Positions 1 to 11,796 of a stretch of DNA of 54,968 nucleotides are shown here, one piece after another. How positions within the stretch are numbered: the stretch's first letter is position 1; the number at the start of each line of letters is the position of its first letter. A model generated the notes under the pieces. That model was not told the origin of the DNA and searched no databases. It saw only the letters and a list, made by a program, of their open reading frames with translations. A program made the position numbers and the translations under genes. Source of the DNA: a virus (taxonomy: Duplodnaviria; Caudoviricetes); the IMG/VR virus record IMGVR_UViG_3300020201_000026, positions 1 to 54,968 of that record; one strand, 5' to 3'.

Positions 1-32
1 CGCGTTTTTTTTGTTATTTGTCCTTTTTTCAT
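1..32 (-). CDS. N-terminus of a gene truncated by the window edge; paralog of 4584-4886
   Basis: ATG at 32-30 reads MKKGQITKKT, matching KKGQITKKT near the start of ORF 4584-4886. It has the A-rich leader typical of this arm. Confidence 0.65.
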   Translation of the reverse strand, partial: MKKGQITKKT

Positions 33-61
33 TTGTTTGGTTTAAAGGGTTAATAAAATAT

Positions 62-517
62 CTATGAAAGATACGGGTTTACGAACAAGCTACTAAAAGT
101 AACATATGACCCGTTTTCTAACCTAAACACGACTATATCGTCTTTTACAGTTAAAAATGTCGCTTTCATTTCAACAATTTTATTCCACACGCTGTCAATC
201 ATCTCAAGCGTAGGAAAATACTTGAAAGACAACAAGTGCTTTTGTCCGTTTTGTTCGCACAAGTCCCATTCAACATCGTATTTGTGGGCATGTTGAATCT
301 TCAACACTTCCCACGAATCGCTGTGTGCCTTGTCGGTCATTCCTCTGGTGTATCTTCCAAACGGAATCAAAACTTGGGTTATTGTGTTTGCCTTAGTGTT
401 GTCATAATTTATTTCAATGACCCCATAAGGTTTTTTGTAGTGAAGTCCTCTAATGGTTATTTTTGGACAGGTTCTTTCTCCGTCCAACACCCATTTTGAA
501 CTTAATATGTTTGTCAT
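62..517 (-). CDS. hypothetical protein (151 aa)
   Basis: ORF with leader TTTAAACCAATTAAAAAATG, co-oriented with the arm; no motif recognised. Confidence 0.75.
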   Translation of the reverse strand: MTNILSSKWVLDGERTCPKITIRGLHYKKPYGVIEINYDNTKANTITQVLIPFGRYTRGMTDKAHSDSWEVLKIQHAHKYDVEWDLCEQNGQKHLLSFKYFPTLEMIDSVWNKIVEMKATFLTVKDDIVVFRLENGSYVTFSSLFVNPYLS

Positions 518-540
518 TTTTTAATTGGTTTAAATGTAAA

Positions 541-568
541 TAAGCAGTTTACACTCTTGCTTAGGAGT
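541..568 (-). ncRNA. small H-type pseudoknot, copy 1 of 3
   Basis: Minus strand ACUC-C-UAAGCA-A-GAGU-GUAAAC-UGCUUA. Stem ACUC/GAGU; loop UAAGCA pairs with UGCUUA. The stem covaries with copies at 8794 and 9133. Confidence 0.6.
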
Positions 569-626
569 TGTTTTAAACCTCTTTATAAAAGCGGTTTAAA
601 ACGTAATAGGTGAGGACAATACTATA

Positions 627-962
627 CTACCTATTACTGTATTTTCTCCAATTGTATAGTTGTGGGGCAAGTAAGTGGTAGCAATATTTAGCCACCGCCC
701 AAGTGTCTTTTTTCCAATTGTATTTTTCTTTGTCAAGTAATCTTGAACAGAACTGAGCTACATAACAGGAGTTTTCCTCCCAATCAAAGCAGTTGTTTTC
801 AATCTGCCAAGCTATTAAATCATAGCTTGAATGTGCATACAACCACGCGTATTGTTGCCCGTGTTCAATGAACGCTAAGTGGACATTTAACTTTCCATTT
901 TCAAATCGCAATCGCCATTCATCACAAGGCACTGTTGTTAGGTTTTCTAATTCAATTATCAT
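627..962 (-). CDS. hypothetical protein (111 aa)
   Basis: ORF with A-rich leader; aromatic-rich; no motif recognised. Confidence 0.75.
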   Translation of the reverse strand: MIIELENLTTVPCDEWRLRFENGKLNVHLAFIEHGQQYAWLYAHSSYDLIAWQIENNCFDWEENSCYVAQFCSRLLDKEKYNWKKDTWAVAKYCYHLLAPQLYNWRKYSNR

Positions 963-1024
963 GTTTTTGTTTTTTGGGTTAAAAATTAATAAAATAGGGC
1001 TTACTTAAAAGCAAACCCTATCAG

Positions 1025-3844
1025 TTATCCTAACATTGCCTGACGAAGCATCACTGCTAAATCAGATTCAGACTCTGTTTCGTCTTTTCTGTCTTCAATT
1101 AGTTGGTTAAGCAACCTGACAGCTTGCACGTGAAATACATACATACTCAAAGAGCTATCAAACTCCTTTAACACGTCTTCAAGGGCTTCACAAAGAAGGC
1201 TTTGTTTTGCGGTTAAAGAGCGGTAGTCTATCTCATCAAGATATGCGTTTATCTCACCAATGGAGTGTTCAAACTCTTGGCAATAGTAGAAGTCTAACGC
1301 CATAGTTTTTAAACTCTCCTTTTCTGACTCAGCAATATCCCTTTGGTCAGTCTTTCTCCAGTAAAAGGCATCTTTTTCTTGTGCTATGTACTTATACACA
1401 TCAGCACTTAACAAAGAATTGTACTCCACTGTAAAAGAGTCAATTAGTTCTTCAACAGACAACTTGAAATCTACTTTTACGCAGGCTTTGTAGCTGTTTA
1501 TCACTAATCTTTCTTTTTCTATTTCCTCCTGCTTTTTTTCATTAGCGACATAGTCGTAATACAGCTGAGATAACTCAGTGTGAGACAGAACACCTTGTCC
1601 TTTATAACAATAAAAGACAACAACCCCTCCTAATTCTAAAGGAAGAGTGAGAAAGTTAGACAAAGAACTAACTGCAAGCAATATCCTTTCTGCTGAGTAT
1701 GACACAGAACTACCTTTGTAGCTGTCTGGTAGTATCTCGTTAACAAAGGAGTAGTGCTTTTTAATATCCTCAATAGATTTCTCTAAAGATTCAATTATCA
1801 GCTCTTTTTGTGATTCTACACTGGCAAAAGTAGGCACAGTTTTAATAACTAATACCACTTTATCTTCTCCTAACAATTCAAGTTTGGTATTAACCACTTT
1901 GATTTGGGATTGATAGTTAGGTAAATAGATACTGCTCACTGCTTTTGCGTGAATCTCCTCTGTTGTTAAAGGAGTAGAAATCCTCATTTCAGCGTTGCCC
2001 ATTGCATATACCGTAACAGTTTCACTATCAGCGTTAAACACTCTTTCTTTAGTGAATAAAGAAGGGTCAAGCTTGTAAACAAGCGCAACTACTGCCTCGT
2101 TAAAATACGTAACGTTAGTAAGAAAAGTAGCTCTTCCAATACTTGTTACTGTACCTGTTGTGTAGGAGAAATAACTCCCTTCAGAAGCAGCCGACACTTT
2201 CGTATCAAATGCTACCCTGTATGCTTTACAGCCTTTAGCTGCAACCACAACAACGGAACACAATTGCTCAGTTACTTGCTGAGTGTCTGTCATATACCCT
2301 AATTGGCTTAGAATAATAGACAGCTTTCTGTATCCCTCAAGGGCTTCTTGCTCCGCCATATAAAAAGTCATTGACTCTTTTGCTTGGCGTACTTCTTTGT
2401 TGTTCTTTTTAGCCACGATGCTGTCGTACAACTTTATATTGGCGTAAGAAGTAGACACAAACTTTGAAAAAAACTTGTTAGTTTTATCTTCGTCTGCTTT
2501 TTTGTCTATGACTGTTCCAAATTTAGTGTACGCCTCAATGGCAAGAAACTTTGCAACTTCTTTGGCGATGCCAAGTTCCATTGCATAATAGAGAATTAGA
2601 GCTTGGTTATACTCTAACATCGTCAATAGAGGAGCAATCCTTTTACCTTTTACAGTAAAACTATTGTTGCTTTCTATTACGTCATTTGCACGAAGCTCTT
2701 CAAGAACCTCGTTGTACTCCATTTGGTTATATGGAGTTATCAGATTTTCGTTATCTACACCTTGTGATAAAGTGTTAACAACAAACTCTCTTGCGTCCAA
2801 CAAGTCAATGGCTCTTAATGGATACTGTTGACGAGAATCGTAAGAACCTATAAGAGTGTATTTGTAAGGCATAGAACCTTGTTCAAGTTGCATTCTTCCA
2901 ATACGCCCAGCAGCTTGCGCCACCTCAGCTTTTGAAACGCTGTAAGTAGTCAATTGCTTGACTCCTTTAACGTTTACCATATGTCGTATTTGACCTAAGT
3001 CAATCACAGACTTTATCCATTTAGGATACGTTAAGCCTGTACGACCTATGTTAGTTGCAATGATAACAGCTTGTCCTTCTTTATGCTGGAGATAAGCCAT
3101 ACGGTCTTTACTGTCCATTTCACCGTGCATAAGATACACAGTTACTTTAGATGAAGCCTTAGTCGCATATGCTTCAACAATAGCTTGTACTTCAGCTATC
3201 TCCTTCTTTCCAGGACAGATAACTATGAAGTTGTACCCTTCTTCAAGTCTTGTATTGACAGTTGAAGTTAGGTTTTGAGAAGTTATCACACTCCCAAACA
3301 CAGGCGAGCCTTCTACACTGAAGCTTGTAGTAGTAGCTTCCACTACATTACAGTTTAGATAAGAAGCAAACATTGTACCTTGCACAGTCGCAGACATAAT
3401 CAAGACTTTACAGCCTAATTCTCTTGCTTTGTACAAGTTGATAATAGTGTTAAGCTCTAATTCGTGAGCTTCATCTATTACCACTAAAGTAGATGACATA
3501 TCCTCTTTGCCTAATTTAGACGTGAGGATTCCTTCGGTCATATACACAACAGAAGCATTAGCATTGCTGCTTGTACCTCTTCCTGTGATATGCCCTATCA
3601 TATCGGGTTGTCCACAGCCTTCAATAGCTGTAGCAGAGTTGCTTTCTGCTTGGCTAATGCGTGGCTGCGAGACATACACTTTGCTTATACCCTCTACGGC
3701 AGTCAGCAAGTGCAGTGGCAAGTATATGGTCTTACCTGTCCCTGTAGGACTTGTAAGAACACATCTGCCAACAGTGTTGAGCTGAGAGGCAATGCTCTCG
3801 GCATAACGAGCTATAGGCAGCTCTTTAAACCATTTTTTCTCCAT
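1025..3844 (-). CDS. DEAH/RHA-family (HrpA/HrpB-like) SF2 helicase with long C-terminal extension
   Basis: Motifs in order: I SPTGTGKT, Ia SQPRI, Ib TEGIL, II DEAHE, III SAT, IV PGKKEI, V ATNIGRTGLT, VI QAAGRIGR. Confidence 0.9.
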   Translation of the reverse strand: MEKKWFKELPIARYAESIASQLNTVGRCVLTSPTGTGKTIYLPLHLLTAVEGISKVYVSQPRISQAESNSATAIEGCGQPDMIGHITGRGTSSNANASVVYMTEGILTSKLGKEDMSSTLVVIDEAHELELNTIINLYKARELGCKVLIMSATVQGTMFASYLNCNVVEATTTSFSVEGSPVFGSVITSQNLTSTVNTRLEEGYNFIVICPGKKEIAEVQAIVEAYATKASSKVTVYLMHGEMDSKDRMAYLQHKEGQAVIIATNIGRTGLTYPKWIKSVIDLGQIRHMVNVKGVKQLTTYSVSKAEVAQAAGRIGRMQLEQGSMPYKYTLIGSYDSRQQYPLRAIDLLDAREFVVNTLSQGVDNENLITPYNQMEYNEVLEELRANDVIESNNSFTVKGKRIAPLLTMLEYNQALILYYAMELGIAKEVAKFLAIEAYTKFGTVIDKKADEDKTNKFFSKFVSTSYANIKLYDSIVAKKNNKEVRQAKESMTFYMAEQEALEGYRKLSIILSQLGYMTDTQQVTEQLCSVVVVAAKGCKAYRVAFDTKVSAASEGSYFSYTTGTVTSIGRATFLTNVTYFNEAVVALVYKLDPSLFTKERVFNADSETVTVYAMGNAEMRISTPLTTEEIHAKAVSSIYLPNYQSQIKVVNTKLELLGEDKVVLVIKTVPTFASVESQKELIIESLEKSIEDIKKHYSFVNEILPDSYKGSSVSYSAERILLAVSSLSNFLTLPLELGGVVVFYCYKGQGVLSHTELSQLYYDYVANEKKQEEIEKERLVINSYKACVKVDFKLSVEELIDSFTVEYNSLLSADVYKYIAQEKDAFYWRKTDQRDIAESEKESLKTMALDFYYCQEFEHSIGEINAYLDEIDYRSLTAKQSLLCEALEDVLKEFDSSLSMYVFHVQAVRLLNQLIEDRKDETESESDLAVMLRQAMLG

Positions 3845-3867
3845 TGTTTTATGTTTTTAAAGGTTTG

Positions 3868-3919
3868 TGAATAAGATTGGATTTGAACCAATTCTCCATA
3901 GGAGCAACCTTGCTTATTC
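3868..3919 (-). ncRNA. 52-nt tRNA-like element lacking a D-stem and anticodon loop
   Basis: Minus strand: acceptor GAAUAAG/CUUAUUC plus discriminator A; T-arm AUUGG-UUCAAAU-CCAAU; linker CAAGGUUG containing GG; mini hairpin CUCC-UAU-GGAG. Confidence 0.7.
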
Positions 3920-3924
3920 AATAA

Positions 3925-3953
3925 AAGTAGGGGCTACAAGAAGCAACCCCTTA
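3925..3953 (-). terminator. post-stop hairpin (terminator or processing site)
   Basis: Minus strand GGGGUUGC-UUCUU-GUAGCCCC followed by UACUUUU, just after the stop of 3957-4379. A similar hairpin lies at ~993-1020. Confidence 0.45.
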
Positions 3954-3956
3954 TAA

Positions 3957-4379
3957 CTAAAACATCTCTCTCCACTGTACGTGTTGAAAGACCGTTGTTT
4001 TGGTAACACTCCCGTCGGGGTTTACCAGCTCAACGGACTTTCTTTCGGTGGTTGACTGAATGCACACAAGAGAGGTATGTGCGTTTTTGTAGTGGGCATA
4101 CAAGTTAGCCCACATTGTCAGGGTAGGCTCACCTGTGCAATAAAAGTGAGTTGCCTCTTCCATTATTGCTTCTGAGACTATCCTCAGAGCAAGCAACTGT
4201 ATTTCTTCTAAAGTTGCTGTTGCTGAAATGGCTGACATTTGAGCTTGCAACTCAGGGTCTACCTCTTTCAAGGTAACAATTGAGTCTTCGTGGTCTTTGC
4301 CAAATTGCGAGTTAAATCCTTCAACTTGAGACTCTGTCAAAACGTGGCTAAACGCGACAAATAACTTCTTGTTTTTCAT
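3957..4379 (-). CDS. csx20: Csx20-like CARF-related protein, putative ring nuclease / anti-CRISPR
   Basis: N-terminal LFVAFSHVLTESQ, central G-E-P-T-L-T, and C-terminal STTERKSVE...DGSVTKTTVFQHVQWR match my recollection of the Csx20 pattern (FSHxLTxxQ ... STTxR ... K.s.F.HvrFR). Confidence 0.75.
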   Translation of the reverse strand: MKNKKLFVAFSHVLTESQVEGFNSQFGKDHEDSIVTLKEVDPELQAQMSAISATATLEEIQLLALRIVSEAIMEEATHFYCTGEPTLTMWANLYAHYKNAHTSLVCIQSTTERKSVELVNPDGSVTKTTVFQHVQWREMF

Positions 4380-4510
4380 ACTTTTATTTTTAAAGGTTTT
4401 AGCAACGATGCACCTTTATCCATTTGTTTCGCACACCCGTCCTGTGTGCTACATCTACCTCGTAGATGAGTTTATAAAGGGTTAGATACAACCTTTATAA
4501 ACTGACTTTG

Positions 4511-4542
4511 CAAAGTTAGTGAAATAACTTCGCATTTGCAAA
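4511..4542 (-). promoter_or_regulatory. Bacteroidota housekeeping-sigma promoter driving csx20-like and helicase genes
   Basis: Minus strand TTTG (4542-4539), 20-nt spacer, TAACTTTG (4518-4511): the -33/-7 consensus TTTG-N19-21-TAnnTTTG. It sits just downstream of a terminator. Confidence 0.75.
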
Positions 4543-4549
4543 CAAATTA

Positions 4550-4580
4550 AAAAGCCTTCCAATTAAATCGGAAGGCTTTT
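4550..4580. terminator. intrinsic terminator (bidirectional-looking)
   Basis: AAAAGCCTTCC-N9-GGAAGGCTTTT perfect inverted repeat 3 nt after the stop of 4584-4886. A related hairpin lies at 9710-9737. Confidence 0.75.
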
Positions 4581-4583
4581 GGG

Positions 4584-4886
4584 TTAAAATGTTGCTAAGT
4601 AAGCTCTCCTTGCCACAGATTCATTCAAGTTTAACCATACGAGGTACTCCTCGTTGGTCATGTCTTGAATGAAGATATATTTTATGCAACTTCTTGCCCC
4701 ACGAGAGCCATAATACGCTTCTTTTACTTCACTTGTGTCTTGTAGCCAATGGCTAAGGGGAGTCTCCTTAGATGTGGAGCAATTAAGCTCCAATAAATCA
4801 CTGAGATACAATTTACCTATTGACCCACTTCTGCGAATTGGGTAATTTGTTTTTTTTGTTATTTGCCCTTTTTTTGACTTTGTCAT
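4584..4886 (-). CDS. hypothetical protein (100 aa)
   Basis: ORF; N-terminus shared with the truncated gene at 1-32. Confidence 0.75.
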   Translation of the reverse strand: MTKSKKGQITKKTNYPIRRSGSIGKLYLSDLLELNCSTSKETPLSHWLQDTSEVKEAYYGSRGARSCIKYIFIQDMTNEEYLVWLNLNESVARRAYLATF

Positions 4887-4930
4887 ACGTTTAAATTGTT
4901 TAAATTGTTAATAAAAAACAGTACGTTTAA

Positions 4931-4970
4931 AAAACTCTTATCAACAGTATGTCTTGGTTGATAAGAATTT
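4931..4970 (-). terminator. hairpin with U-tail after 4975-5487
   Basis: Minus strand AAAAUUCUUAUCAAC-loop-GUUGAUAAGAGUUUUU, with a G-U wobble only on the minus strand. Confidence 0.55.
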
Positions 4971-4974
4971 TGAA

Positions 4975-5487
4975 TTATTTTGTGAGGAGAAAATGACTGT
5001 TTGCTTGTGTTTTGTATAACACAAAACAGTCATTTGCCGCTAAGGCTGTCCCTGAATTGCTCCCTTTCTCCTCAATAAAATATTGGCGAGTTTCAAAGAA
5101 CACAAGGGTATCTTCTCCTTCTTTTTGAAAGACTTGGAGCATTTGTCCTTTGTCAGTCCCTACTTGGTCTTCCCAATCCTTTCTACAAGATAAGCCCTCG
5201 TAGATATGTTGGTTTATGTGATGAAACTCACACGCCATTGGCAGTGTGATTTCTTTTCTGTTTACCAAAAATGTCTCTGGATTGATTTCAAAGGACACCT
5301 TGTATTCGTATGGACTACCCTCCGAGTAGTCGTCCTTTGCAGAAATCTCATACGGCTCTGAGTTACTCGCAAACCCAATAACTAGTTCGTCGTGATAGCT
5401 TACACTTGCCATTAAGTGCTTGCCGCCCTCAATGAGGGTCTCGCCTGTTATGGCGTTTTTTATTAAAATTTCCGTGAAGTTTGACAT
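4975..5487 (-). CDS. hypothetical acidic protein (170 aa)
   Basis: ORF; no motif recognised. Confidence 0.75.
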   Translation of the reverse strand: MSNFTEILIKNAITGETLIEGGKHLMASVSYHDELVIGFASNSEPYEISAKDDYSEGSPYEYKVSFEINPETFLVNRKEITLPMACEFHHINQHIYEGLSCRKDWEDQVGTDKGQMLQVFQKEGEDTLVFFETRQYFIEEKGSNSGTALAANDCFVLYKTQANSHFLLTK

Positions 5488-5497
5488 TGTTTTTGGA

Positions 5498-5545
5498 TTT
5501 AGGGTTTAGGGTTTAGGGTTTAGGGTTTAGGGTTTAGGGTTTAGG
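5498..5545 (+). repeat. (TTTAGGG)6 + TTTAGG tandem repeat
   Basis: Read directly; lies 10 nt upstream of the ATG of the minus-strand gene 4975-5487. Confidence 0.95.
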
Positions 5546-5610
5546 CTACGATTAAGAAAAAGGCTCTTTAATTTAATTGTAGAACCCTTTTCTAATTTAA
5601 TTTTAGCGCA

Positions 5611-5982
5611 CTATACTATTGAAAACCTGCTGATGTACAGGTTTTCTTCTTGGTCTTGGTCTTCGTCTTCAAGAACCCATTCGTGGGCTATGGTTTTGAT
5701 GCGTGGGAATCTTGCGATTCTTCCACACTCAACTCCAAAAACGTACAACTCAATAGTGCATTGAGCTGTCAAGTCTACTCTCAACCCACCATATTGGACG
5801 GCATACGCCCAGTTTATATTTGTTTCTAACAGAAACAAGGCAACCTCATATTGCACTTGTTCTGTGATTGGTGTGAACTTGTTAATCCCTCCATAAATGG
5901 AGTTTTTTAACTGTTCTACCATTTCTTCCTTTTCTTCTTGGTCAGCAGAGTTGTAATTTCTGCTGAATTCATAATTGTCCAT
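5611..5982 (-). CDS. hypothetical protein, paralog of 9747-10133
   Basis: YEVALFLLETNINWAYAVQYGGLRV aligns with WEIAFCLLKASPEWAYAVQFGKLNV. Confidence 0.8.
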   Translation of the reverse strand: MDNYEFSRNYNSADQEEKEEMVEQLKNSIYGGINKFTPITEQVQYEVALFLLETNINWAYAVQYGGLRVDLTAQCTIELYVFGVECGRIARFPRIKTIAHEWVLEDEDQDQEENLYISRFSIV

Positions 5983-6009
5983 AGTTTTTTGTTTTGTTTA
6001 ATGGTTTAA

Positions 6010-6041
6010 TAAAACAGGACTTACATCTTACGACTGCCTGT
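6010..6041 (-). repeat. 32-nt intergenic hairpin repeat, copy 1 of 3
   Basis: TAAAACAGGACTTACATCTTACGACTGCCTGT; near-identical copies at 6705-6736 and 7875-7906. Confidence 0.9.
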
Positions 6042-6050
6042 TGTTAGTTT

Positions 6051-6680
6051 TTAGATAGACTTCAGCATTTCTGCGAGTTTCTCTAACGTTTGAAGTCTTT
6101 CCGATACTACGGATTGAGCAGCGTAGATGACGGATTTCAACGCACTTGGCAGGGAGGTTACGGCATGAGGGGTCATGTCATAGTCCCCGAATAAAACACC
6201 AAGAGCAACCTCGTAAGGGAGCTTTGTAAAGTCTTCCCCTCCAAAACCGTTAAAGATGTTAGCCAAAGATACTCGCTCCATTTCTTCTCCATTGATTTTT
6301 GCAGAGGTTACTATTTCCCCTGAAACTATCCTTTCAGCAACCGTTTTGCAAACGAATGCAAAAAGGTTGAGTTCACCTCCATAACAATCACTGTCGTCTG
6401 CCAAATGGTTTTCAATAGCAACATTATTAATGGTTATTGTTGCTACTTCTACTACGCTGTACTTTTCCCCCCAAAAACTTGCTTGTGCGAGACTTGCAAG
6501 CATGGGTTGTCCGTTAGGGTTGAATAACCCCTCTATAATAGTTTGCGACAAAACTACATCACTGTTTATTGCCGCTTGTGTCTTGGTCTTTGCCATTAAA
6601 ACAAAAGCTGTTGCTTCTGCTTCGGTGGGGAAGAAGTACTCATTTGTTTTTTGAGTACGTTGGTTTTTGATAGTGAACAT
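6051..6680 (-). CDS. hypothetical protein, tandem paralog of 6740-7360
   Basis: Aligns end to end with the neighbouring gene (MFxIKN..KTNEYFF, NGxPMxAxL, LPYxVAxGVLFGDY, RLQTLExLAxMLKSI). Confidence 0.85.
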   Translation of the reverse strand: MFTIKNQRTQKTNEYFFPTEAEATAFVLMAKTKTQAAINSDVVLSQTIIEGLFNPNGQPMLASLAQASFWGEKYSVVEVATITINNVAIENHLADDSDCYGGELNLFAFVCKTVAERIVSGEIVTSAKINGEEMERVSLANIFNGFGGEDFTKLPYEVALGVLFGDYDMTPHAVTSLPSALKSVIYAAQSVVSERLQTLEKLAEMLKSI

Positions 6681-6704
6681 TTTTTTACTTGTTTAAAAGG
6701 TTAA

Positions 6705-6736
6705 TAAAACAGGACTTACATCTTGCGACTGCCTGT
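6705..6736 (-). repeat. 32-nt intergenic hairpin repeat, copy 2 of 3
   Basis: TAAAACAGGACTTACATCTTGCGACTGCCTGT. Confidence 0.9.
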
Positions 6737-6739
6737 GTG

Positions 6740-7360
6740 TTAAATAGATTTTAGCATTTTTGCTAAATCTTCTAACGTTTGAAGTCTTTGCGATACTACT
6801 CTTTGAGCGGCGTAAAAGATTGATTCCAATGCGCTTTTCAATGCCATTGCTGGGTGAGATTTTGTTTTGTAATCTCCAAACAAAACCCCACAGGCAACGC
6901 TGTAAGGAAGCTTTGTGGGGTCTTCCTCCCCAAAGTCGTTAAAGATACTTATGAGCGAAACCCGCTCTTTTTCCTCTCCGTTCACTTGAACGGAAATGAC
7001 ACTCTCCCCCAATATTATCATTTCTTGAACTTTTTTTGAAATAAAATCAGAGAGCTTTCCCCCCAAAAATTCGCCACTGTCGTCCGCCAAGTCGTTGTCA
7101 ATGGCAACTCCATTGATAAGCACCTTTGCACTTTCAATGACTTCGTATTTTTGCTCCAAAAACGAAGCTTTTTCAAGGAACGCCGACATTGGCTTTCCAT
7201 TAGGGTGGAACACCCCTTGCACTATTTCACTCACGTCCCCTCTGTCAATGACAGATTGTGTTTTTTCTTTTGCCATTACGAGAAAAGCGGTAGCTTCTTC
7301 GGCAGTTGCAAAAAAATACTCGTTGGTCTTTCCTGACCGTTTGTTTTTTATACTAAACAT
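6740..7360 (-). CDS. hypothetical protein, tandem paralog of 6051-6680
   Basis: Aligns end to end with 6051-6680. Confidence 0.85.
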   Translation of the reverse strand: MFSIKNKRSGKTNEYFFATAEEATAFLVMAKEKTQSVIDRGDVSEIVQGVFHPNGKPMSAFLEKASFLEQKYEVIESAKVLINGVAIDNDLADDSGEFLGGKLSDFISKKVQEMIILGESVISVQVNGEEKERVSLISIFNDFGEEDPTKLPYSVACGVLFGDYKTKSHPAMALKSALESIFYAAQRVVSQRLQTLEDLAKMLKSI

Positions 7361-7412
7361 AGTGTTTTTTTGTTTAAAAGGCTTAATAAAATAGCACGTT
7401 TATCTTAAACGT

Positions 7413-7866
7413 ACAAATAAACACTAAAACCACGAGCAATCTTGGCTCTCTGGTTGCAACACCAAACTCACACACGGTGAGGAACTATGTGTGGTCTTAG
7501 GGTTTAAGGTAGGTTTGAGCCTATAACTTTCTTGCTGTTACACAAGCCTGCTCAAACAGGATTAAGTTTTGCTAAACTTACAAAATAACATTGGACAACT
7601 TTCATTTAGCTAAATGAAGGCTTATGTTGTCCCAATGCCTCTTATCGGTCAATTACAAAATGATAGATTCTAATTCTTGACCTTTTACAGTCCCCCGTTC
7701 ATTACTCGGGCTATTTCGGAGAATAGCAAAAAACAGACGAGGCTTATGAAGCATTTTCGTGTCTGTCTTACTCCTTACTCAGTTCTAACGTATCTATCAC
7801 AGTTAGAACATATATGCACACCTGTCTTACAGGATTCAACGCTTGCATAATGCGTTATTTATTTGT
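7413..7866 (-). ncRNA. candidate large (~450 nt) structured ncRNA
   Basis: No ORF >=60 aa; termini complementary (ACAAATAAA/TTTATTTGT); at least 8 internal hairpins; two candidate loop-loop pseudoknots. Confidence 0.6.
7445..7488 (-). repeat. 44-nt repeat (two-hairpin / three-way junction module), copy 1 of 2
   Basis: Matches 8571-8614 at 43 of 44 positions; the single difference is in a hairpin loop. Confidence 0.9.
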
Positions 7867-7874
7867 TTATGAGA

Positions 7875-7906
7875 TAAAACAGGACTTACATCTTGCGAAT
7901 GCCTGT
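7875..7906 (-). repeat. 32-nt intergenic hairpin repeat, copy 3 of 3
   Basis: TAAAACAGGACTTACATCTTGCGAATGCCTGT. Confidence 0.9.
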
Positions 7907-7908
7907 TG

Positions 7909-8433
7909 TTACTTGATTTGGTGGGTTTTACACCACCCTGATTTTTTTATTGCCAAAAGGCGTAAGTAATCGGAAGAGTAGGGGTTGTCATATCCTGACG
8001 ACCACTGGTCGTCATACCCTGAGGCCCAATGAGAGTTCCTCGTGAAAGAGAAACCCAATGCCAAACTCTTTAGAATCTTTAAATGTTCCTCTCTGTCAAA
8101 AGAGGTTATTACCTGTAAGCGGTCGCAATGCAGTGAGATTTCAGCCTCCAATTTGCTGGTGCAGGAGCTTCCTTTCCAGCTATGACCCCAGCTAATCATG
8201 CCACTCCATTTTTTAAATCGTTCCGCCCATTTCTTGCAGAACGGTTCCCAGCCAGTGGCTTTGGTCTTCCCAGAAACACAAACAGTCGTCCCCGACGATA
8301 GGTTGTACGTAATGGTAACCTTGTACCGCTCTTTGTTGCGGTATAAAGTTGCAATATGATATTCAATGTACGAGATTGAATTTCGTACATTGACAGTCGC
8401 TACGGGCGTTGCAAATAATTGGATTGCTATCAT
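7909..8433 (-). CDS. hypothetical protein (174 aa, Trp/Ser-rich)
   Basis: ORF with AACAAAAAATG leader. Confidence 0.75.
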   Translation of the reverse strand: MIAIQLFATPVATVNVRNSISYIEYHIATLYRNKERYKVTITYNLSSGTTVCVSGKTKATGWEPFCKKWAERFKKWSGMISWGHSWKGSSCTSKLEAEISLHCDRLQVITSFDREEHLKILKSLALGFSFTRNSHWASGYDDQWSSGYDNPYSSDYLRLLAIKKSGWCKTHQIK

Positions 8434-8570
8434 TTTTTGTTCTGCTTACTCAATGCAGAAACACTCTGTCTTTGTCCCGAACGGGAAACAGGTGTTAGCA
8501 GTTTCTCGTAAATTCTACGAGGAAGATTTAGAGTTTTCTCTCTTTTGTTATCTACCGTACAATAATCACA

Positions 8571-8614
8571 GCTCTCTGGTTGCAACACCAAACTCACACC
8601 CGGTGAGGAACTAT
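8571..8614 (-). repeat. 44-nt repeat, copy 2 of 2
   Basis: GCTCTCTGGTTGCAACACCAAACTCACACCCGGTGAGGAACTAT. Confidence 0.9.
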
Positions 8615-8712
8615 ACTATACACTGCAAAAATGCAACATCACACCTAAGCCGAAGCTCTCCCTTTAGATTTTTCAGGGATTAAGGTGCCAACCTCCTAAG
8701 AGGTATTTAAAT

Positions 8713-8821
8713 ACGTCTTTCTTGTTCTTTCACTGTCGCATTAACCCCCGTAGGAGAAAAGACGTTGCAACAGCGAGAGGTTTTTCCTCTATCAAAGCAG
8801 TTTATAGTCCTGCTTAGGACT
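8713..8821 (-). ncRNA. ~110-nt structured repeat (small pseudoknot + hairpin + nested pseudoknot), copy 1 of 2
   Basis: Direct repeat of 9050-9160 with compensatory changes in two stems. Confidence 0.7.
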
Positions 8822-8835
8822 TGCTCTTATCGGGG

Positions 8836-9021
8836 TTAATCCCAATAAGAGCTATGACCCCCTTTTCCATACGCTGCCATACGACAGCCGGGATTTCTTT
8901 TTATTGCAGCCCTTGAGGTCTTTGCAGGGCTTTTCTTTTTGGGACGACAAGCTTTTCTCCTGCCCATTGCTTGACGAGGGTGAAAGTCATTCTTGTCTTC
9001 CACAATCTCGTGGATTTTCAT
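8836..9021 (-). CDS. small basic hypothetical protein (61 aa)
   Basis: K/R-rich ORF with the arm-typical leader TAACCTTAAAAC...ATG, flanked by the 110-nt repeats. Confidence 0.6.
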   Translation of the reverse strand: MKIHEIVEDKNDFHPRQAMGRRKACRPKKKSPAKTSRAAIKRNPGCRMAAYGKGGHSSYWD

Positions 9022-9049
9022 GATGTCTTGTGTTTTAAGGTTAAATAAT

Positions 9050-9160
9050 GCACTTTTCTTGTTCTTTCACTGTCGCATTAACTTCCGTAGAAGAAAAAGT
9101 GCTGCAACAATTAGAGGTTTATTTCCCCTATCAAAGCAGTTTATAGTCCTGCTTAGGACT
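9050..9160 (-). ncRNA. ~110-nt structured repeat, copy 2 of 2
   Basis: Direct repeat of 8713-8821 with compensatory stem changes. Confidence 0.7.
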
Positions 9161-9174
9161 TTTGACGATTAATC

Positions 9175-9606
9175 CTACAGGGCTTTAACCCAGTACTCCA
9201 TTGAACTTAACCATGTAACACACATCATTGGACTAAGTTCCTCCGCCAGCGATGTCCAATCAGGGGCATACTGATTGTCCCCTTTTGTGGGGTAGCCCAG
9301 TTGGGCATACCCGTACAAATATGTCCACATTTGAAGTCGCACGTCCTCAAAAGAGCAGTAAAGGTGGGTTGCCCCCACTTTTGTTGCCTCTTTCACGATT
9401 TCAAGAGCCAAAGCTTTCACTTGTACAAGTGCGAGCTTGGCACTTTCTGTGTCAAATCCTATCATGGTTGCAATTTCTGTACCCTCGTACCCTTGAGCAT
9501 CTTCATGGTGGCAACCATTGATATGGCTGCCGTACTGTAAGCGGAACATGTCCTCTTGGCGAGGGGTCAATACAGTTTGAGACGCTACGAATAATATCTT
9601 TTTCAT
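9175..9606 (-). CDS. divergent paralog of the Csx20-like protein
   Basis: LFVASQTVLTPRQ vs LFVAFSHVLTESQ; LALEIVKEA..GATHLYC vs LALRIVSEA..EATHFYC; LQMWTYLY vs LTMWANLY. The C-terminal STT/HV segment is lost. Confidence 0.7.
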   Translation of the reverse strand: MKKILFVASQTVLTPRQEDMFRLQYGSHINGCHHEDAQGYEGTEIATMIGFDTESAKLALVQVKALALEIVKEATKVGATHLYCSFEDVRLQMWTYLYGYAQLGYPTKGDNQYAPDWTSLAEELSPMMCVTWLSSMEYWVKAL

Positions 9607-9629
9607 ATTTTTATTTATTTAAGGTTTAT

Positions 9630-9707
9630 TTTCTTGCGAACCACCGCTTGCTCTATGTTTCCATAGACTTGTGAGACTCTCGTATTCCGAAGAACTTAGA
9701 GGTAGTT
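9630..9707 (-). ncRNA. GAAA-tetraloop / 11-nt-receptor RNA element, copy 1 of 2
   Basis: Receptor variant UCUAAG/UACGA capped by UUCG; hairpin UCUAUG-GAAA-CAUAGA; closing stem AACUAC/GUGGUU. Aligns without gaps to 10160-10237. Confidence 0.7.
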
Positions 9708-9709
9708 GT

Positions 9710-9737
9710 AAAAGCCCCCCAGTTAATCGGAGGGCTT
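9710..9737 (-). terminator. probable intrinsic terminator
   Basis: AAGCCC...GGGCUUUU hairpin after the stop of 9747-10133; resembles 4550-4580. Confidence 0.6.
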
Positions 9738-9746
9738 GTTGTTACT

Positions 9747-10133
9747 TTATTTGAGGAAGAATGTGTTTTCTACTACTTCGTCGCCGAAGTAATCTCGTTC
9801 GTCCCCTGTGTAAGGGACGGTTTTAGAGGTACAACCAATTGACGTTGTAGGAAACTTAATGTCCCCTAAATCCACTCCGCAAGTTGACAGCGAAACTACT
9901 CCGTTCTTTCCTATATACACGTTCAATTTGCCGAATTGAACAGCATACGCCCATTCTGGCGACGCTTTCAATAGGCAAAACGCTATTTCCCACTTGATGT
10001 CGTAGGATATTATGTCAAAATGTCCGTTTGCCATTTTCAGCGATTTGGCAAGGCTTTTAGCCATCTTGCCTCTTTCTGTAACTGTGCCGTATACGAAACG
10101 GCTTGTGTATACGTCTTTTTTTGAAACTTTCAT
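9747..10133 (-). CDS. hypothetical protein, paralog of 5611-5982
   Basis: Shared WAYAVQ(F/Y)G core. Confidence 0.8.
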   Translation of the reverse strand: MKVSKKDVYTSRFVYGTVTERGKMAKSLAKSLKMANGHFDIISYDIKWEIAFCLLKASPEWAYAVQFGKLNVYIGKNGVVSLSTCGVDLGDIKFPTTSIGCTSKTVPYTGDERDYFGDEVVENTFFLK

Positions 10134-10159
10134 AATACTTATTTATTTATTGAGTTTAA

Positions 10160-10237
10160 TTTCTTGCGAACTACCGCTTGCATTACTTTTCAGTAACCTT
10201 GTGAGACTCCCATATCCTACTGGACTTAGGGGAAACC
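10160..10237 (-). ncRNA. GAAA-tetraloop / 11-nt-receptor RNA element, copy 2 of 2
   Basis: Canonical receptor CCUAAG/UAUGG; hairpin GUUACU-GAAA-AGUAAU. Confidence 0.7.
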
Positions 10238-10293
10238 GATTGTATATGTACCTCAACGCCGAAATCCCAATGACGGATTCGTGTGAGAAACAA

Positions 10294-10389
10294 GAAATAG
10301 TTACATACTGTATGGGTATGTAGCTATTTCATTAGTTACGTGTACGGTTAAACACGTAACATATACCCTAAACTTTTAATTTAGGGTAT
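10294..10389. repeat. three consecutive inverted repeats
   Basis: GAAATAGTTACATAC/GTATGTAGCTATTTC, GTTACGTGT/ACACGTAAC and ATACCCTAAA/TTTAGGGTAT. Confidence 0.85.
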
Positions 10390-10394
10390 TGTTT

Positions 10395-11063
10395 TTATTT
10401 TGGCACACTTGCCGTGTTTGCTAATTTAGCTTGTTCTTTTGCTAATTTAGCTTGTTCTTTTGCCTCATCTTTGGTTTTTTCTGTGTTGTTTTCTTTTGTA
10501 ACCGCAATAGGGGCAATAAAGCCTCCTATTGCCCAAAATAGGCTCTTTGATGACTTTTCTTGCCACACTGTGTTCTCCCGTACAGTTGCAAGTTGTTCGT
10601 GGTAGCTAATACCAACCTTCATTAATGAAGGAATAGCGTTAGCAATGTTCAAATACTTTGTACCTGAACTTGTTGTAACCAAAACGGTCTCCATGTCGCA
10701 TGTTACACCCTCTAATAGGGTAGCAACATTTTTGATTGAAACGTTGATAAGTTCGTTGCCTCTTGTGAAGCAACCAACCGTGAGTGAAAGTACTGCAACC
10801 GCAGTAAAATCACTCTTAACGAGCGCGTTGTTTGCAACCTCTATGGTAGCAATTGATAGTTTCTTTTCTATCAATTTTGTGTCATACGCATTGTCTACTT
10901 CACTGTGTGTGAAGTTAGATAAGACACTGCCTTCTAAGAGGTAGTGCCTTTTAATGGGTATGATAAACTCCGACGTGGCACGTAGTGCCAAATTAGAGGG
11001 TATTAATCTATCAACCATTGGTATAGGGCTATTTTGTAAACGGTTGCACGGTTGCAGTCGCAT
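10395..11063 (-). CDS. hypothetical protein, first gene of the left arm; start uncertain (ATG 11063, ATG 11018 or TTG 10874)
   Basis: Open frame with a C-terminal 21-bp tandem repeat (AKEQAKL x2). The 5' part is hairpin-rich, and TTG 10874 has the A-rich context typical of this arm. Confidence 0.6.
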   Translation of the reverse strand: MRLQPCNRLQNSPIPMVDRLIPSNLALRATSEFIIPIKRHYLLEGSVLSNFTHSEVDNAYDTKLIEKKLSIATIEVANNALVKSDFTAVAVLSLTVGCFTRGNELINVSIKNVATLLEGVTCDMETVLVTTSSGTKYLNIANAIPSLMKVGISYHEQLATVRENTVWQEKSSKSLFWAIGGFIAPIAVTKENNTEKTKDEAKEQAKLAKEQAKLANTASVPK

Positions 11064-11668
11064 ATAGCCAAAGGCAGGAGGGGTGAATAGACATCAGACT
11101 CAATACTCCTTCTTAAAAAAATATTTTTTTTGCTGGGGTCAGTTGTCATTTTGCCTTGTGTGTTAGTTTGCTGTGTGTTAGTTTTACTGTAGAGGGGGGT
11201 ATTTGAGGGGGTGTTGTTTTATGTTTTTCTTTGGGTGGTTTCTTTGGCTATGGTATTATAGTTATAAGCTCTATCAAGGGGCAAGCCCCTTAAAAAGTTG
11301 TTTTTGGAGTACCTGATCCAGTCCTTTTTTGGGGAGAGTGTAGTATCTTTTGTTTAATGTGGAGATAGACACGTTCCACTACAATATAAATAAGGGTATG
11401 CTTTTACTGCAAAATGTTTATGCGGATTATCAGCCAGAGCTTCGTATCAGAACCTTATGAAAGAGGATGCGAAGATGTTTATGCCTTTAGCACTGAAGGA
11501 TTACCGCAAGAGGGGAGTTTCAACCGCCCATTTTGTTGCCCTTTTATCTTAATACCTTTCGTTGCCAAAAGGTAACCGAGAATCTAAAAAAGAATCGTTA
11601 TATATATAACTTATTTTTGACATAAAAGGTTCAGTTATTTTGAAAATAAATTAAAAATATTTTTTATT

Positions 11669-11700
11669 TTTGGTAGTATCGTTTTGTTGTGTTATATTTG
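11669..11700 (+). promoter_or_regulatory. Bacteroidota-type promoter for the tRNA / right arm
   Basis: TTTG (11669-72), 20-nt spacer, TATATTTG (11693-700), 8 nt before the tRNA. Confidence 0.75.
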
Positions 11701-11708
11701 CACAACAA

Positions 11709-11781
11709 GTCCTTATAGCTTAACTGGAAAAGCGTTACCCTTCTAAGGTAAGGAGTACAAGTTCAAATCTTGTTAGGGACA
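11709..11781 (+). tRNA. tRNA-Arg(TCT)
   Basis: Acceptor GTCCTTA/TAGGGAC+A; D-arm GCTT/AAGC; anticodon arm TTACC-CTTCTAA-GGTAA; T-arm ACAAG-TTCAAAT-CTTGT; CCA not encoded. Confidence 0.92.
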
Positions 11782-11796
11782 CTAATAGATTATAAT

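What the first reader, a model, noticed from the sequence alone, without database searches (positions are those of the whole stretch)
7413..7866. ~450-nt ORF-free region folding into a closed multi-stem RNA with two candidate pseudoknots
Seen (plus coordinates): terminal stem 7413-21/7858-66; stems 7424-33/7491-7500 (G-U only on minus), 7513-20/7550-57, 7589-99/7626-37 with an inner TTCATTTAGCTAAATGAA palindrome, 7647-52/7677-82, 7710-16/7721-27, 7733-38/7761-66 and 7782-89/7802-09. Long-range complementarity on minus: loop GUGAUAGAU (7800-7792) with AUCUAUCAU (7668-7660), and ACAUAAGCCU (7627-18) with AGGCUUGUGU (7549-40). Known: large ornate ncRNAs such as ROOL and GOLLD occur in phages. I see no tmRNA, RNase P or group I/II signatures. 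Inference: a large ncRNA of possibly new class.
Basis: partly seen in the sequence, partly recalled or inferred. Interest (0 to 1): 0.8.

Follow-up and report, generated by a model that had tools for sequence, protein, structure and literature searches.

The report
Hairpin-rich non-coding spacer, crAss-like phage
A 548-base gene-free stretch in the early genes of a distant crAss-like phage is real and rich in stem-loops, but it looks like two swappable non-coding cassettes rather than one large closed RNA, and whether it makes a functional RNA could not be tested.

Summary
The gap 7361-7908 has no ORF over 57 aa under table 11, and TAG or TGA reassignment opens no frame spanning it. No Rfam family matches and no tmRNA is called.

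The folding z-score (-3.6) is not diagnostic. Coding windows of the same early block score -2.7 to -7.3, and a likely true tmRNA in phage phi14:2 scores only -0.8. Better evidence is an excess of helices of 9 bp or more: 7 on the minus strand, 2 on the plus strand, about 1.65 in shuffles.

Contigs of related mat phages show a modular region. Segment 7587-7876 appears present in one haplotype and absent in another. Pieces 7396-7507 and 7821-7853 recur in other contexts. The flanking protein genes are replaced. This argues against one closed 450-nt RNA with the proposed closing stem.

My reading is two tandem non-coding cassettes, about 290 and 190 nt, each ending in a hairpin plus U-run. They are probably transcribed with the early genes. 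No homologues for covariation and no RNA data were obtainable, so function is unproven.

The parts
7877..7908 (-). Linker after the stop of gene 7909-8433: a hairpin with a GCAA-containing loop plus a U-run. It is one of three near-identical copies; the others are at 6009-6043 and 6704-6736.
   Evidence: family D1; 94-97% identity. Related contigs keep 7881-7914 while the neighbouring gene differs (records 13, 14).
7587..7876 (-). Cassette C, about 290 nt. It opens with an A-rich, start-like context and an ATG, then has about 8 local hairpins. It ends in the long hairpin 7637-7589 followed by a U-rich run.
   Evidence: Fold (z -2.55; 1 of 200 shuffles as good); a contig joint 7586>7877 (depth 8.12) beside a contig spanning 7557-7911 (depth 9.63), and an X4 contig that starts exactly at 7588. 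Start context.
7768..7848 (-). Small ORF-a, 26 aa. Its ATG sits where a gene start is expected after the linker.
   Evidence: Piece 7821-7853, which includes this ATG, recurs in another context in X2 record 12.
7653..7754 (-). Small ORF-b, 33 aa, with no supporting evidence of coding.
7782..7809 (-). 8-bp hairpin. Its loop (7800-7792) is complementary over 9 nt to the loop of hairpin 7647-7682 (7668-7660).
7647..7682 (-). 6-bp hairpin with a 24-nt loop that carries the partner of the loop-loop complementarity.
7589..7637 (-). Long bipartite hairpin with an inner 18-nt palindrome, followed by a U-rich run. I propose it as the 3' end of cassette C.
7415..7586 (-). Core cassette: hairpin 7580-7563, hairpin 7557-7513, and a four-way 'cloverleaf' junction at 7506-7418 (a 15-bp closing stem plus three hairpins).
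   Evidence: z -4.16; MFE equals the centroid; 9% of the ensemble. X3 contig 7396-7586 has depth 18.8 and 6 differences.
7394..7414 (-). Terminator-like hairpin of 9 pairs followed by a U-rich tail. I propose it as the 3' end of the core cassette.
7361..7393 (-). A-rich translation-initiation context of gene 6740-7360, shared with the other early genes.
   Evidence: (family D2).
8564..8614 (-). Second copy (92%) of cloverleaf hairpins I and II, in the leader of gene 7909-8433.
   Evidence: (D7).

Best explanation
The 548-nt gap is genuine non-coding sequence in the early, minus-strand gene block of a divergent crAss-like phage from a microbial mat. It is not one closed RNA. It consists of two tandem 'gene-slot' cassettes, bounded by the same hairpin + U-run + A-rich linkers that bound the neighbouring protein genes. 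Cassette C (7876-7587, about 290 nt) is a chain of about 8 hairpins ending in a long hairpin plus U-run, and it appears to be present in some related genomes and absent in others. The core cassette (7586-7394, about 190 nt) has two hairpins, a four-way cloverleaf junction and a terminator-like hairpin plus U-run. I propose that both are transcribed from the minus strand together with the early genes and give one or two stable structured early RNAs. This would resemble the two abundant early long non-coding RNAs reported for crAss-like phage phi14:2. Shown: the anatomy, the absence of ORFs, the strand-biased excess of helices, and the modularity and retention in relatives. Inferred: transcription, the RNA ends, stability and any function.
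For: (1) The gap is ORF-free under table 11, and TAG or TGA reassignment opens no frame covering it. Stops occur in all three minus frames throughout.
(2) Helices of at least 9 bp with at most 1 G-U number 7 on the minus strand and 2 on the plus strand. Shuffles of the minus strand give 0.44 local plus 1.21 long-range. All 7 minus-strand helices contain a G-U that is A-C on the plus strand. The early block as a whole shows no such bias: 61 plus against 67 minus.
(3) The core folds to a well-defined structure: z -4.16, 0 of 200 shuffles as good, and MFE equal to the centroid.
(4) Both cassettes end in a hairpin plus U-run. Terminator-like sites in 6500-9200 number 14, against 2.5 +/- 1.8 expected.
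(5) The left edge repeats the linker and start context of the neighbouring genes, and the right edge repeats it again, so the region occupies 'slots' in a cassette array.
(6) Related contigs keep 7396-7586 (6 differences) and 7557-7911 (4 differences). Runs X2-X4 show zero depth over the flanking genes, bins 6744-7363 and 7984-8479. The X3 contig becomes unlike the window directly after the stop codon at 7911.
(7) Of the 7 listed substitutions in the variant copy of 7396-7507, 3 fall in loops and 4 in stems. Three of the stem changes keep pairing on the minus strand (7428, 7434, 7450) and 1 breaks it (7451). I mapped onto the pairs by eye; 7 further differences were not shown.
(8) Precedent: passages of bioRxiv 10.1101/2020.03.07.982082 report two long intergenic regions in the phi14:2 early region transcribed above most genes.
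Against: No transcript evidence exists; no listed run is RNA. There is no covariation, because every search for fetchable homologues was empty or gave a chance hit. The MFE z-score is no better than that of neighbouring coding sequence. The substitution evidence is thin: 3 of 4 stem changes are compatible, and two of those sit at G-U pairs where either transition is compatible. The presence/absence of cassette C rests on one contig joint whose shorter side is 30 nt and lies in a repeated linker, plus depth arithmetic (9.63 + 8.12 against 18.8). There is no sequence similarity to the phi14:2 intergenic regions. No Bacteroidota-type promoter lies upstream on the minus strand, so any transcript would depend on read-through or on an unknown early promoter. 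Two small ORFs (26 and 33 aa) cannot be excluded as coding.
Confidence: 0.4

Rival explanations
1. Cis-acting regulatory and recombination linkers only. The hairpins are terminators, RNA-processing or stability elements, leader elements of the downstream gene, and conserved boundary sequences at which gene cassettes are exchanged between related phages. This resembles the promoter-early stem-loops of T4-like phages (recalled, not looked up here). No discrete functional RNA is made.
For: The linker hairpin recurs after three genes. Cloverleaf hairpins I and II also lie in the leader of gene 7909-8433, about 140-175 nt before its ATG, and lie about 90-120 nt before the ATG of gene 6740-7360. Contigs of relatives break or diverge exactly at 6742, 7396, 7507, 7586-7588, 7877-7881, 7911 and 8571, that is at gene and module edges. 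The whole early block is hairpin-rich: 37 of 48 early tiles carry a local helix of at least 9 bp, against 50 of 188 late tiles.
Against: About 480 nt is far longer than the 59-140 nt linkers between the other early genes. The excess of long-range, G-U-containing helices on one strand is not needed for linkers. The core cassette has its own terminator-like end before the next gene.
Confidence: 0.3
2. One reading: one closed ~450-nt ornate RNA (7413-7866) with a terminal stem and two pseudoknots, forming a new class.
For: All the listed pairings exist. The terminal complementarity extends to 11 bp (7866-7856/7423-7413), and long-range helices exceed shuffles. The full-length MFE uses a closing helix.
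Against: The closing stem is all A/U. One haplotype appears to lack 7587-7876, which removes its 5' arm and one arm of the 7627-18/7549-40 pairing. The 7549-40 segment has two alternative partners, 7748-40 and 7627-18. The predicted fold is mostly a row of local hairpins. There is no Rfam match and no covariation.
Confidence: 0.1
3. A remnant of a lost protein gene, and/or one or two tiny protein genes (ORF-a 26 aa, ORF-b 33 aa).
For: The ATG at 7848 sits in the same linker plus A-rich context as real gene starts. The 33-nt piece holding this ATG is joined to different downstream sequence in another contig (X2 record 12). The region occupies gene-sized slots.
Against: Stops are spread through all three minus frames with no residual long frame. 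No translated similarity exists to anything else in the record. A decaying pseudogene would not be expected to stay 96-99% identical across contexts while carrying an excess of helices. I did not search the six-frame translation against the large protein databases.
Confidence: 0.12
4. A very divergent tmRNA or other tRNA-like RNA. By position it parallels phi14:2, where a tmRNA is called in the second long intergenic region.
For: phi14:2 4031-4502 scores 46 bits against Rfam tmRNA (gathering 47, E 3.6e-16). ARAGORN calls a tmRNA at 4031-4500. Both phages have the arrangement 'long gap, one gene, long gap' in the early block. The core contains a cloverleaf-shaped junction.
Against: No tmRNA or tRNA hit appears in 7000-8300 even at E up to 10. 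ARAGORN finds none at default settings and only scattered implausible calls at relaxed settings. The cloverleaf has a 15-bp closing stem, a 9-nt linker and no T-loop-like motif. The flanking proteins are unrelated to those of phi14:2.
Confidence: 0.03
5. A DNA-level element such as a replication origin, a packaging site or an array of protein-binding sites.
For: There are many inverted repeats, and the motif at 7748-40 / 7627-18 occurs twice.
Against: The cumulative GC skew turns at about 10.4-11.0 kb, in the divergent intergenic region, not here. GC content is unremarkable. No iterons or tandem repeats lie inside the region. The helices favour one strand through G-U pairs, which has no meaning for duplex DNA.
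Confidence: 0.03

Closest known systems
Early long non-coding RNAs of crAss-like phage phi14:2 (g004-g005 and g005-g006 junctions; bioRxiv 10.1101/2020.03.07.982082, passages read)
   Same: They are long ORF-free gaps inside the early gene block of a crAss-like phage, co-directional with the early genes, and arranged as two long gaps around a single gene (here 8434-9174 and 7361-7908 around gene 7909-8433).
   Different: There is no sequence similarity and the flanking proteins are unrelated. One phi14:2 region appears to be a tmRNA, and this one is not. Expression is measured for phi14:2 but unknown here. The g005 coordinates are in a supplementary table I could not open, so the assignment of the tmRNA call to the second junction is my inference from the RefSeq feature table.
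Promoter-early stem-loop (PeSL) boundary repeats of T4-like phages
   Same: These are repeated hairpin-containing intergenic motifs between small early genes. Neighbouring genes are swapped between related genomes exactly at these motifs.
   Different: No promoter was recognised in the motif here. The finding is about 480 nt of extra non-coding sequence, not just a boundary motif.
Large ornate phage-associated RNAs in Rfam (ROOL, GOLLD and others)
   Same: They are phage-borne, several hundred nucleotides long and multi-stem.
   Different: cmscan against all 4227 Rfam families gives no match, even at E up to 10. The predicted fold is mostly serial local hairpins rather than a conserved multi-junction core. 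No family of homologues is known.

Membership tests
tmRNA (RF00023 and the permuted forms) | A match to the covariance model: a tRNA-like domain formed by the two ends, a T-arm, and pseudoknots. | tested here: not met
   No tmRNA-family hit in 7000-8300 at E up to 10 or in the whole window at gathering score. As a positive control, phi14:2 gives 46 bits, E 3.6e-16.
tmRNA (RF00023 and the permuted forms) | A tag-peptide reading frame plus an acceptor end recognisable by ARAGORN. | tested here: not met
   ARAGORN finds no tmRNA at default settings. The relaxed run gives 10 mutually inconsistent calls.
tRNA / tRNA-like | A cloverleaf with a 7-bp acceptor stem and D, anticodon and T arms of canonical size. 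| tested here: not met
   The junction at 7506-7418 has a 15-bp closing stem, a 9-nt linker and arms of 5/5, 6/6 and 4/7 (stem/loop). ARAGORN and Rfam tRNA do not call it.
Any described RNA family (Rfam 15: ROOL, GOLLD, OLE, RNase P, group I/II introns, 6S and others) | A covariance-model match at or near the gathering score. | tested here: not met
   Only 4 matches at E 2-9.3, all far below gathering (best 19.8 bits against 141).
crAss-like phage early long non-coding RNA (as in phi14:2) | A long ORF-free gap within the early block, on the sense strand of the early genes. | tested here: met
   (Crass_capsid, E 3.5e-45).
crAss-like phage early long non-coding RNA (as in phi14:2) | An abundant transcript from the earliest time point. 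| not testable with these tools
   No RNA run holds this phage.
crAss-like phage early long non-coding RNA (as in phi14:2) | Sequence or structure homology to the phi14:2 regions. | tested here: not met
   blastn and nhmmer find nothing below E 0.2.
Intrinsic terminator | A G+C-containing hairpin followed by a U-run on the transcribed strand. | tested here: met
   7414-7394 has 9 pairs and a U-rich tail. For 7637-7589 the hairpin plus U-rich run is seen by eye and in the fold but was not flagged by the scan.
PeSL-type mosaic boundary repeat | A repeated intergenic hairpin motif with gene replacement in relatives at the motif edges. | tested here: met
   Three copies in the window. Relatives keep 6679-6742 and 7881-7914 but diverge beyond 6742 and 7911.
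PeSL-type mosaic boundary repeat | An early promoter inside the motif. | not testable with these tools
   No sigma-70-like or Bacteroidota-type promoter was found there. The early promoters of crAss virion polymerases have no known consensus.

The most novel reading that the evidence does not exclude
The core cassette (7586-7394), with or without cassette C, encodes a new family of structured early phage RNA. Its four-way-junction module is a portable RNA unit reused in several genomic contexts of a mosaic population of mat crAss-like phages. In that case non-coding RNA genes would be shuffled as cassettes exactly like the small early protein genes, and would be functional counterparts of the unexplained abundant early RNAs of phi14:2.
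Probability: 0.25. Interest if true: 0.6.

Novelty: new member of a known kind. Interest (0 to 1): 0.35.

Why it matters
crAss-like phages are abundant, and their early programme is run by a virion-packaged RNA polymerase that is poorly understood. The only transcriptome read here (phi14:2) reports two very abundant early non-coding RNAs of unknown function. A second, unrelated crAss-like phage with the same 'long gap, gene, long gap' layout would suggest that early structured RNAs are a general feature of the order, especially if the gaps are kept while neighbouring genes are swapped. It would also give a concrete ~190-nt candidate to test. If the region is instead only linkers, it still documents cassette-style shuffling of early genes at conserved hairpin boundaries in this group.

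Tried and rejected
Homologue searches that gave nothing:
- blastn (distant mode) of the region against GenBank phages found no match.
- The flanking proteins have no relative in viral contigs.
- Exact or gapped pattern scans of viral contigs and genome contigs gave 0 hits.
- Scans of metagenome contigs gave 0 hits and 1 hit. The single hit, L018, lies inside a 460-aa ORF of a high-GC contig and is a chance match.
- The nearest fetchable relative by helicase (63% identity; 244.7-kb record G001, locus L006) has no DNA similarity to 7361-9174. All 11 matches have E of 0.39 or more.
- A covariance model of cloverleaf hairpins I and II found only its own 2 input copies in 81,594 bases (window, L006, L017).

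Expression: no RNA holder was listed. All four runs that were laid are DNA contigs.

Annotation of neighbours: Pfam gave no family for 8 of the 10 proteins searched, including all 7 small early ones. PHROGs gave nothing for 9 of 10, plus one weak hit at E 0.005.

Other rejected ideas:
- TAA=Q gives only fragmented frames with 5-6 read-through stops, so I rejected it.
- A loop-only shuffle test of the loop-loop complementarity was uninformative, because the span-limited fold paired part of the loops. I discarded it.
- MFE z-score as a criterion is rejected as non-specific.
- A Bacteroidota-type promoter scan found none on the minus strand near the region.
- I did not search the six-frame translation of the region against the large protein databases. 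I did not use structure prediction, complex prediction or the protein atlas, because they do not bear on a non-coding stretch.
- Supplementary tables of the phi14:2 preprint (gene coordinates, transcript abundances) are closed and may bear on which junction holds the tmRNA.

Full report
CONTEXT. The window is a whole IMG/VR virus record of 54,968 bases, estimated 33% complete. It encodes a Crassvirus-type major capsid protein (Pfam Crass_capsid, E 3.5e-45). That protein is at most 27% identical to those of GenBank crAss-like phages; all 62 matching records are below 60%. DNA runs holding the phage are labelled microbial mat metagenome. Genes at 1-11,063 lie on the minus strand and are small ORFans plus a 939-aa helicase. 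Genes from 11,770 onward lie on the plus strand and are structural. The finding is the gap between the minus-strand genes 6740-7360 (206 aa) and 7909-8433 (174 aa).

THE OBSERVATION. The gap has no ORF over 57 aa, and no frame covering it opens with TAG=Q or TGA=W. With TAA=Q only fragmented frames with several read-through stops appear. Other gaps in the early block are 59-261 nt, except a second long one at 8434-9174. RNAfold gives z -3.63 (minus) and -3.39 (plus), with 0 of 100 shuffles as good in each.

IS THE FOLDING SPECIAL? By z-score it is not. Four 548-nt windows inside the early block gave z -2.75, -5.42, -7.25 and -4.91; 2741-3288, which lies wholly inside the helicase gene, gave -5.42. 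Fifteen late-block windows ranged from -2.6 to +2.2, with a mean of about -0.6. In 200-nt windows the finding is weaker than many coding neighbours. As controls, the likely tmRNA of phi14:2 scores only -0.8, while coding windows of a related phage score -3.65 and -7.07. MFE z-scores therefore neither support nor refute an RNA gene here.

Helix counts are a better measure. On the minus strand of 7413-7866 there are 5 long-range helices of at least 9 bp with at most 1 G-U, against 1.21 +/- 1.01 in shuffles; 0 of 300 shuffles reach 5. There are also 2 local helices, against 0.44 expected. Only 2 of 236 tiles of 454 nt across the record reach 5 long-range helices. The plus strand has 2 such helices against 7 on the minus strand, and all 7 minus-strand helices contain a G-U. 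The early block as a whole shows no strand bias, 61 against 67. This is moderate evidence for RNA-level pairing on the sense strand.

KNOWN FAMILIES. Rfam at gathering score finds only tRNA-Arg at 11709-11781. At E up to 10, the stretch 7000-8300 gives four noise hits, the best at 19.8 bits against a gathering score of 141. ARAGORN finds no tmRNA, and relaxed settings give only inconsistent calls.

ANATOMY. Each early gene is followed by a hairpin plus U-run and then an A-rich start context. One linker hairpin recurs nearly identically at 6009-6043, 6704-6736 and 7874-7908. The finding begins with this linker and a start-like context leading to an ATG at 7848, which opens only a 26-aa frame. 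About 8 local hairpins follow, ending with the long hairpin 7637-7589 and a U-rich run (z -2.55). I call this cassette C (7876-7587).

Then comes a core (7586-7394): two hairpins, a four-way junction at 7506-7418 (a 15-bp closing stem enclosing three hairpins) and a 9-bp terminator-like hairpin plus U-run. The core's MFE equals its centroid, holds 9% of the ensemble and has z -4.16, with 0 of 200 shuffles as good. Hairpins I and II of the junction recur at 8564-8614 (92%) in the leader of the upstream gene. A covariance model of them finds no third copy.

RELATIVES. No RNA run was listed. Four DNA runs were laid as contigs at 80% likeness or better. X1 may be the source sample.
- Runs X2-X4 have zero depth over the two flanking genes (bins 6744-7363 and 7984-8479) but do cover the gap.
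- In X3, a 193-nt contig covers 7396-7586 (6 differences, depth 18.8).
- A 1256-nt X3 contig covers 7557-7911 (4 differences, depth 9.63) and then becomes unlike the window directly after the stop codon at 7911. An X2 contig carries the same alternative flank.
- One X3 contig joins 7586 to 7877 (depth 8.12; shorter side 30 nt, inside the repeated linker). The sum 9.63 + 8.12 is close to 18.8, which suggests two haplotypes, one with and one without 7587-7876. An X4 contig starts at 7588.
- Piece 7396-7507 also occurs, with 13-14 differences (and 2 indels in two of the four contigs), inside unrelated flanks in all four runs. Piece 7821-7853 occurs in another context in X2.

Taken together, the gap is a patchwork of modules exchanged at gene and hairpin edges. 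Caution is needed here: the joint rests on a single contig and a short side.

LIMITED SUBSTITUTION EVIDENCE. I mapped the 7 listed substitutions of the variant copy of 7396-7507 onto the pairs. Three are in a loop. Three keep pairing on the minus strand: 7428 turns G-U into G-C, 7434 turns G-C into G-U (which would be a mismatch on the plus strand), and 7450 turns U-G into U-A. One, at 7451, breaks a pair. Seven further differences were not displayed. The pattern is compatible with the structure but not significant.

SEARCH FOR HOMOLOGUES. Every search came back empty or with a chance hit. The searches were GenBank phages, the flanking proteins and seven pattern scans of three collections (the one hit is a chance match). 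The nearest fetchable relative (helicase 63%) has no similar DNA. Upstream of its helicase it carries its own 1.26-kb ORF-free stretch with no Rfam match.

PRECEDENT. Passages of bioRxiv 10.1101/2020.03.07.982082 state that two long intergenic regions in the phi14:2 early region are transcribed above most genes. They appear from the first time point and persist, and their function is undetermined. The same passages say early transcripts share no upstream motif. In NC_021806 the stretch 2905-4601 has no current CDS. Rfam matches tmRNA at 4031-4502 (46 bits against a gathering score of 47; E 3.6e-16), and ARAGORN calls a tmRNA at 4031-4500. The layout 'long gap, gene, long gap' is shared with this window, but neither the sequences nor the proteins are related.

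ALTERNATIVES.
- Origin of replication: the GC skew turns at about 10.4-11.0 kb, not here.
- Pseudogene: stops are spread through all minus frames, and there is no translated similarity within the record.
- Small ORFs: these cannot be excluded.
- Linkers only: plausible, and ranked second.

VERDICT. The stretch is a real, ORF-free, hairpin-rich, strand-biased non-coding region, retained in mosaic relatives. Most likely it is two non-coding cassettes that give structured early RNA(s) (confidence 0.4). The single closed 450-nt pseudoknotted RNA is unlikely (0.1).

Noticed in passing
L017 (NC_021806, phi14:2) 4031-4502, plus strand: Rfam tmRNA match (46 bits against a gathering score of 47; E 3.6e-16) and an ARAGORN tmRNA call at 4031-4500. 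It lies inside the ORF-free stretch that the phi14:2 preprint describes as a highly transcribed early 'long non-coding RNA' of unknown function. The RefSeq record has no such feature. The listing of 14 papers with 'Cellulophaga, tmRNA, phage' and the preprint passages did not show this assignment, but I read no other paper.
   Followed up: partly
window 8434-9174, minus strand: A second long gap (741 nt), upstream of gene 7909-8433. It holds a ~105-nt module repeated at 8718-8822 and 9055-9161 (85-98% identical), a possible 61-aa basic ORF (8836-9021) and the copy of hairpins I and II. There is no Rfam match. It is retained at 88-98% identity in related contigs.
   Followed up: partly
L006 2913-4175 (IMG/VR record G001, 244.7 kb): A 1.26-kb ORF-free stretch upstream of the helicase of the nearest fetchable relative. 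It has several CCGCAAG motifs (possible GNRA-loop hairpins) and tRNA genes nearby. There is no Rfam hit, and z is only -1.5 to -1.9.
   Followed up: partly
window 1-11000 against 12000-54968: The whole early block folds far better than shuffles, even inside genes (z -2.7 to -7.3, against about -0.6 in the late block). It also has many more local helices of at least 9 bp (37 of 48 tiles against 50 of 188). Coding windows of the relative L006 show the same (z -3.65 and -7.07). This is unexplained.
   Followed up: partly
window 5491-5545: A tandem heptamer TTTAGGG, about 7 copies, in the gap between genes 4975-5487 and 5611-5982. The plus strand is G-rich.
   Followed up: no
window 11665-11700 (plus strand) and 4518 (minus strand): Bacteroidota-type promoter motifs (TTTG about 20 nt before TAnnTTTG). 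Two overlapping ones lie just upstream of tRNA-Arg(TCT) at 11709-11782, and one lies between the early genes 4584-4886 and 3957-4379. They are consistent with a Bacteroidota host.
   Followed up: no
window 3957-4379 / 9175-9606; 5611-5982 / 9747-10133; 6051-6680 / 6740-7360: Three pairs of paralogous early ORFan proteins (37%, 34% and 59% identity). Repeated leaders at 9605-9702 and 10135-10232 (71%) contain a GTTCGCAAGAA hairpin motif. Together these indicate segmental duplication in the early block.
   Followed up: no
window 10417-10458: A perfect 21-nt tandem duplication inside gene 10395-11063.
   Followed up: no
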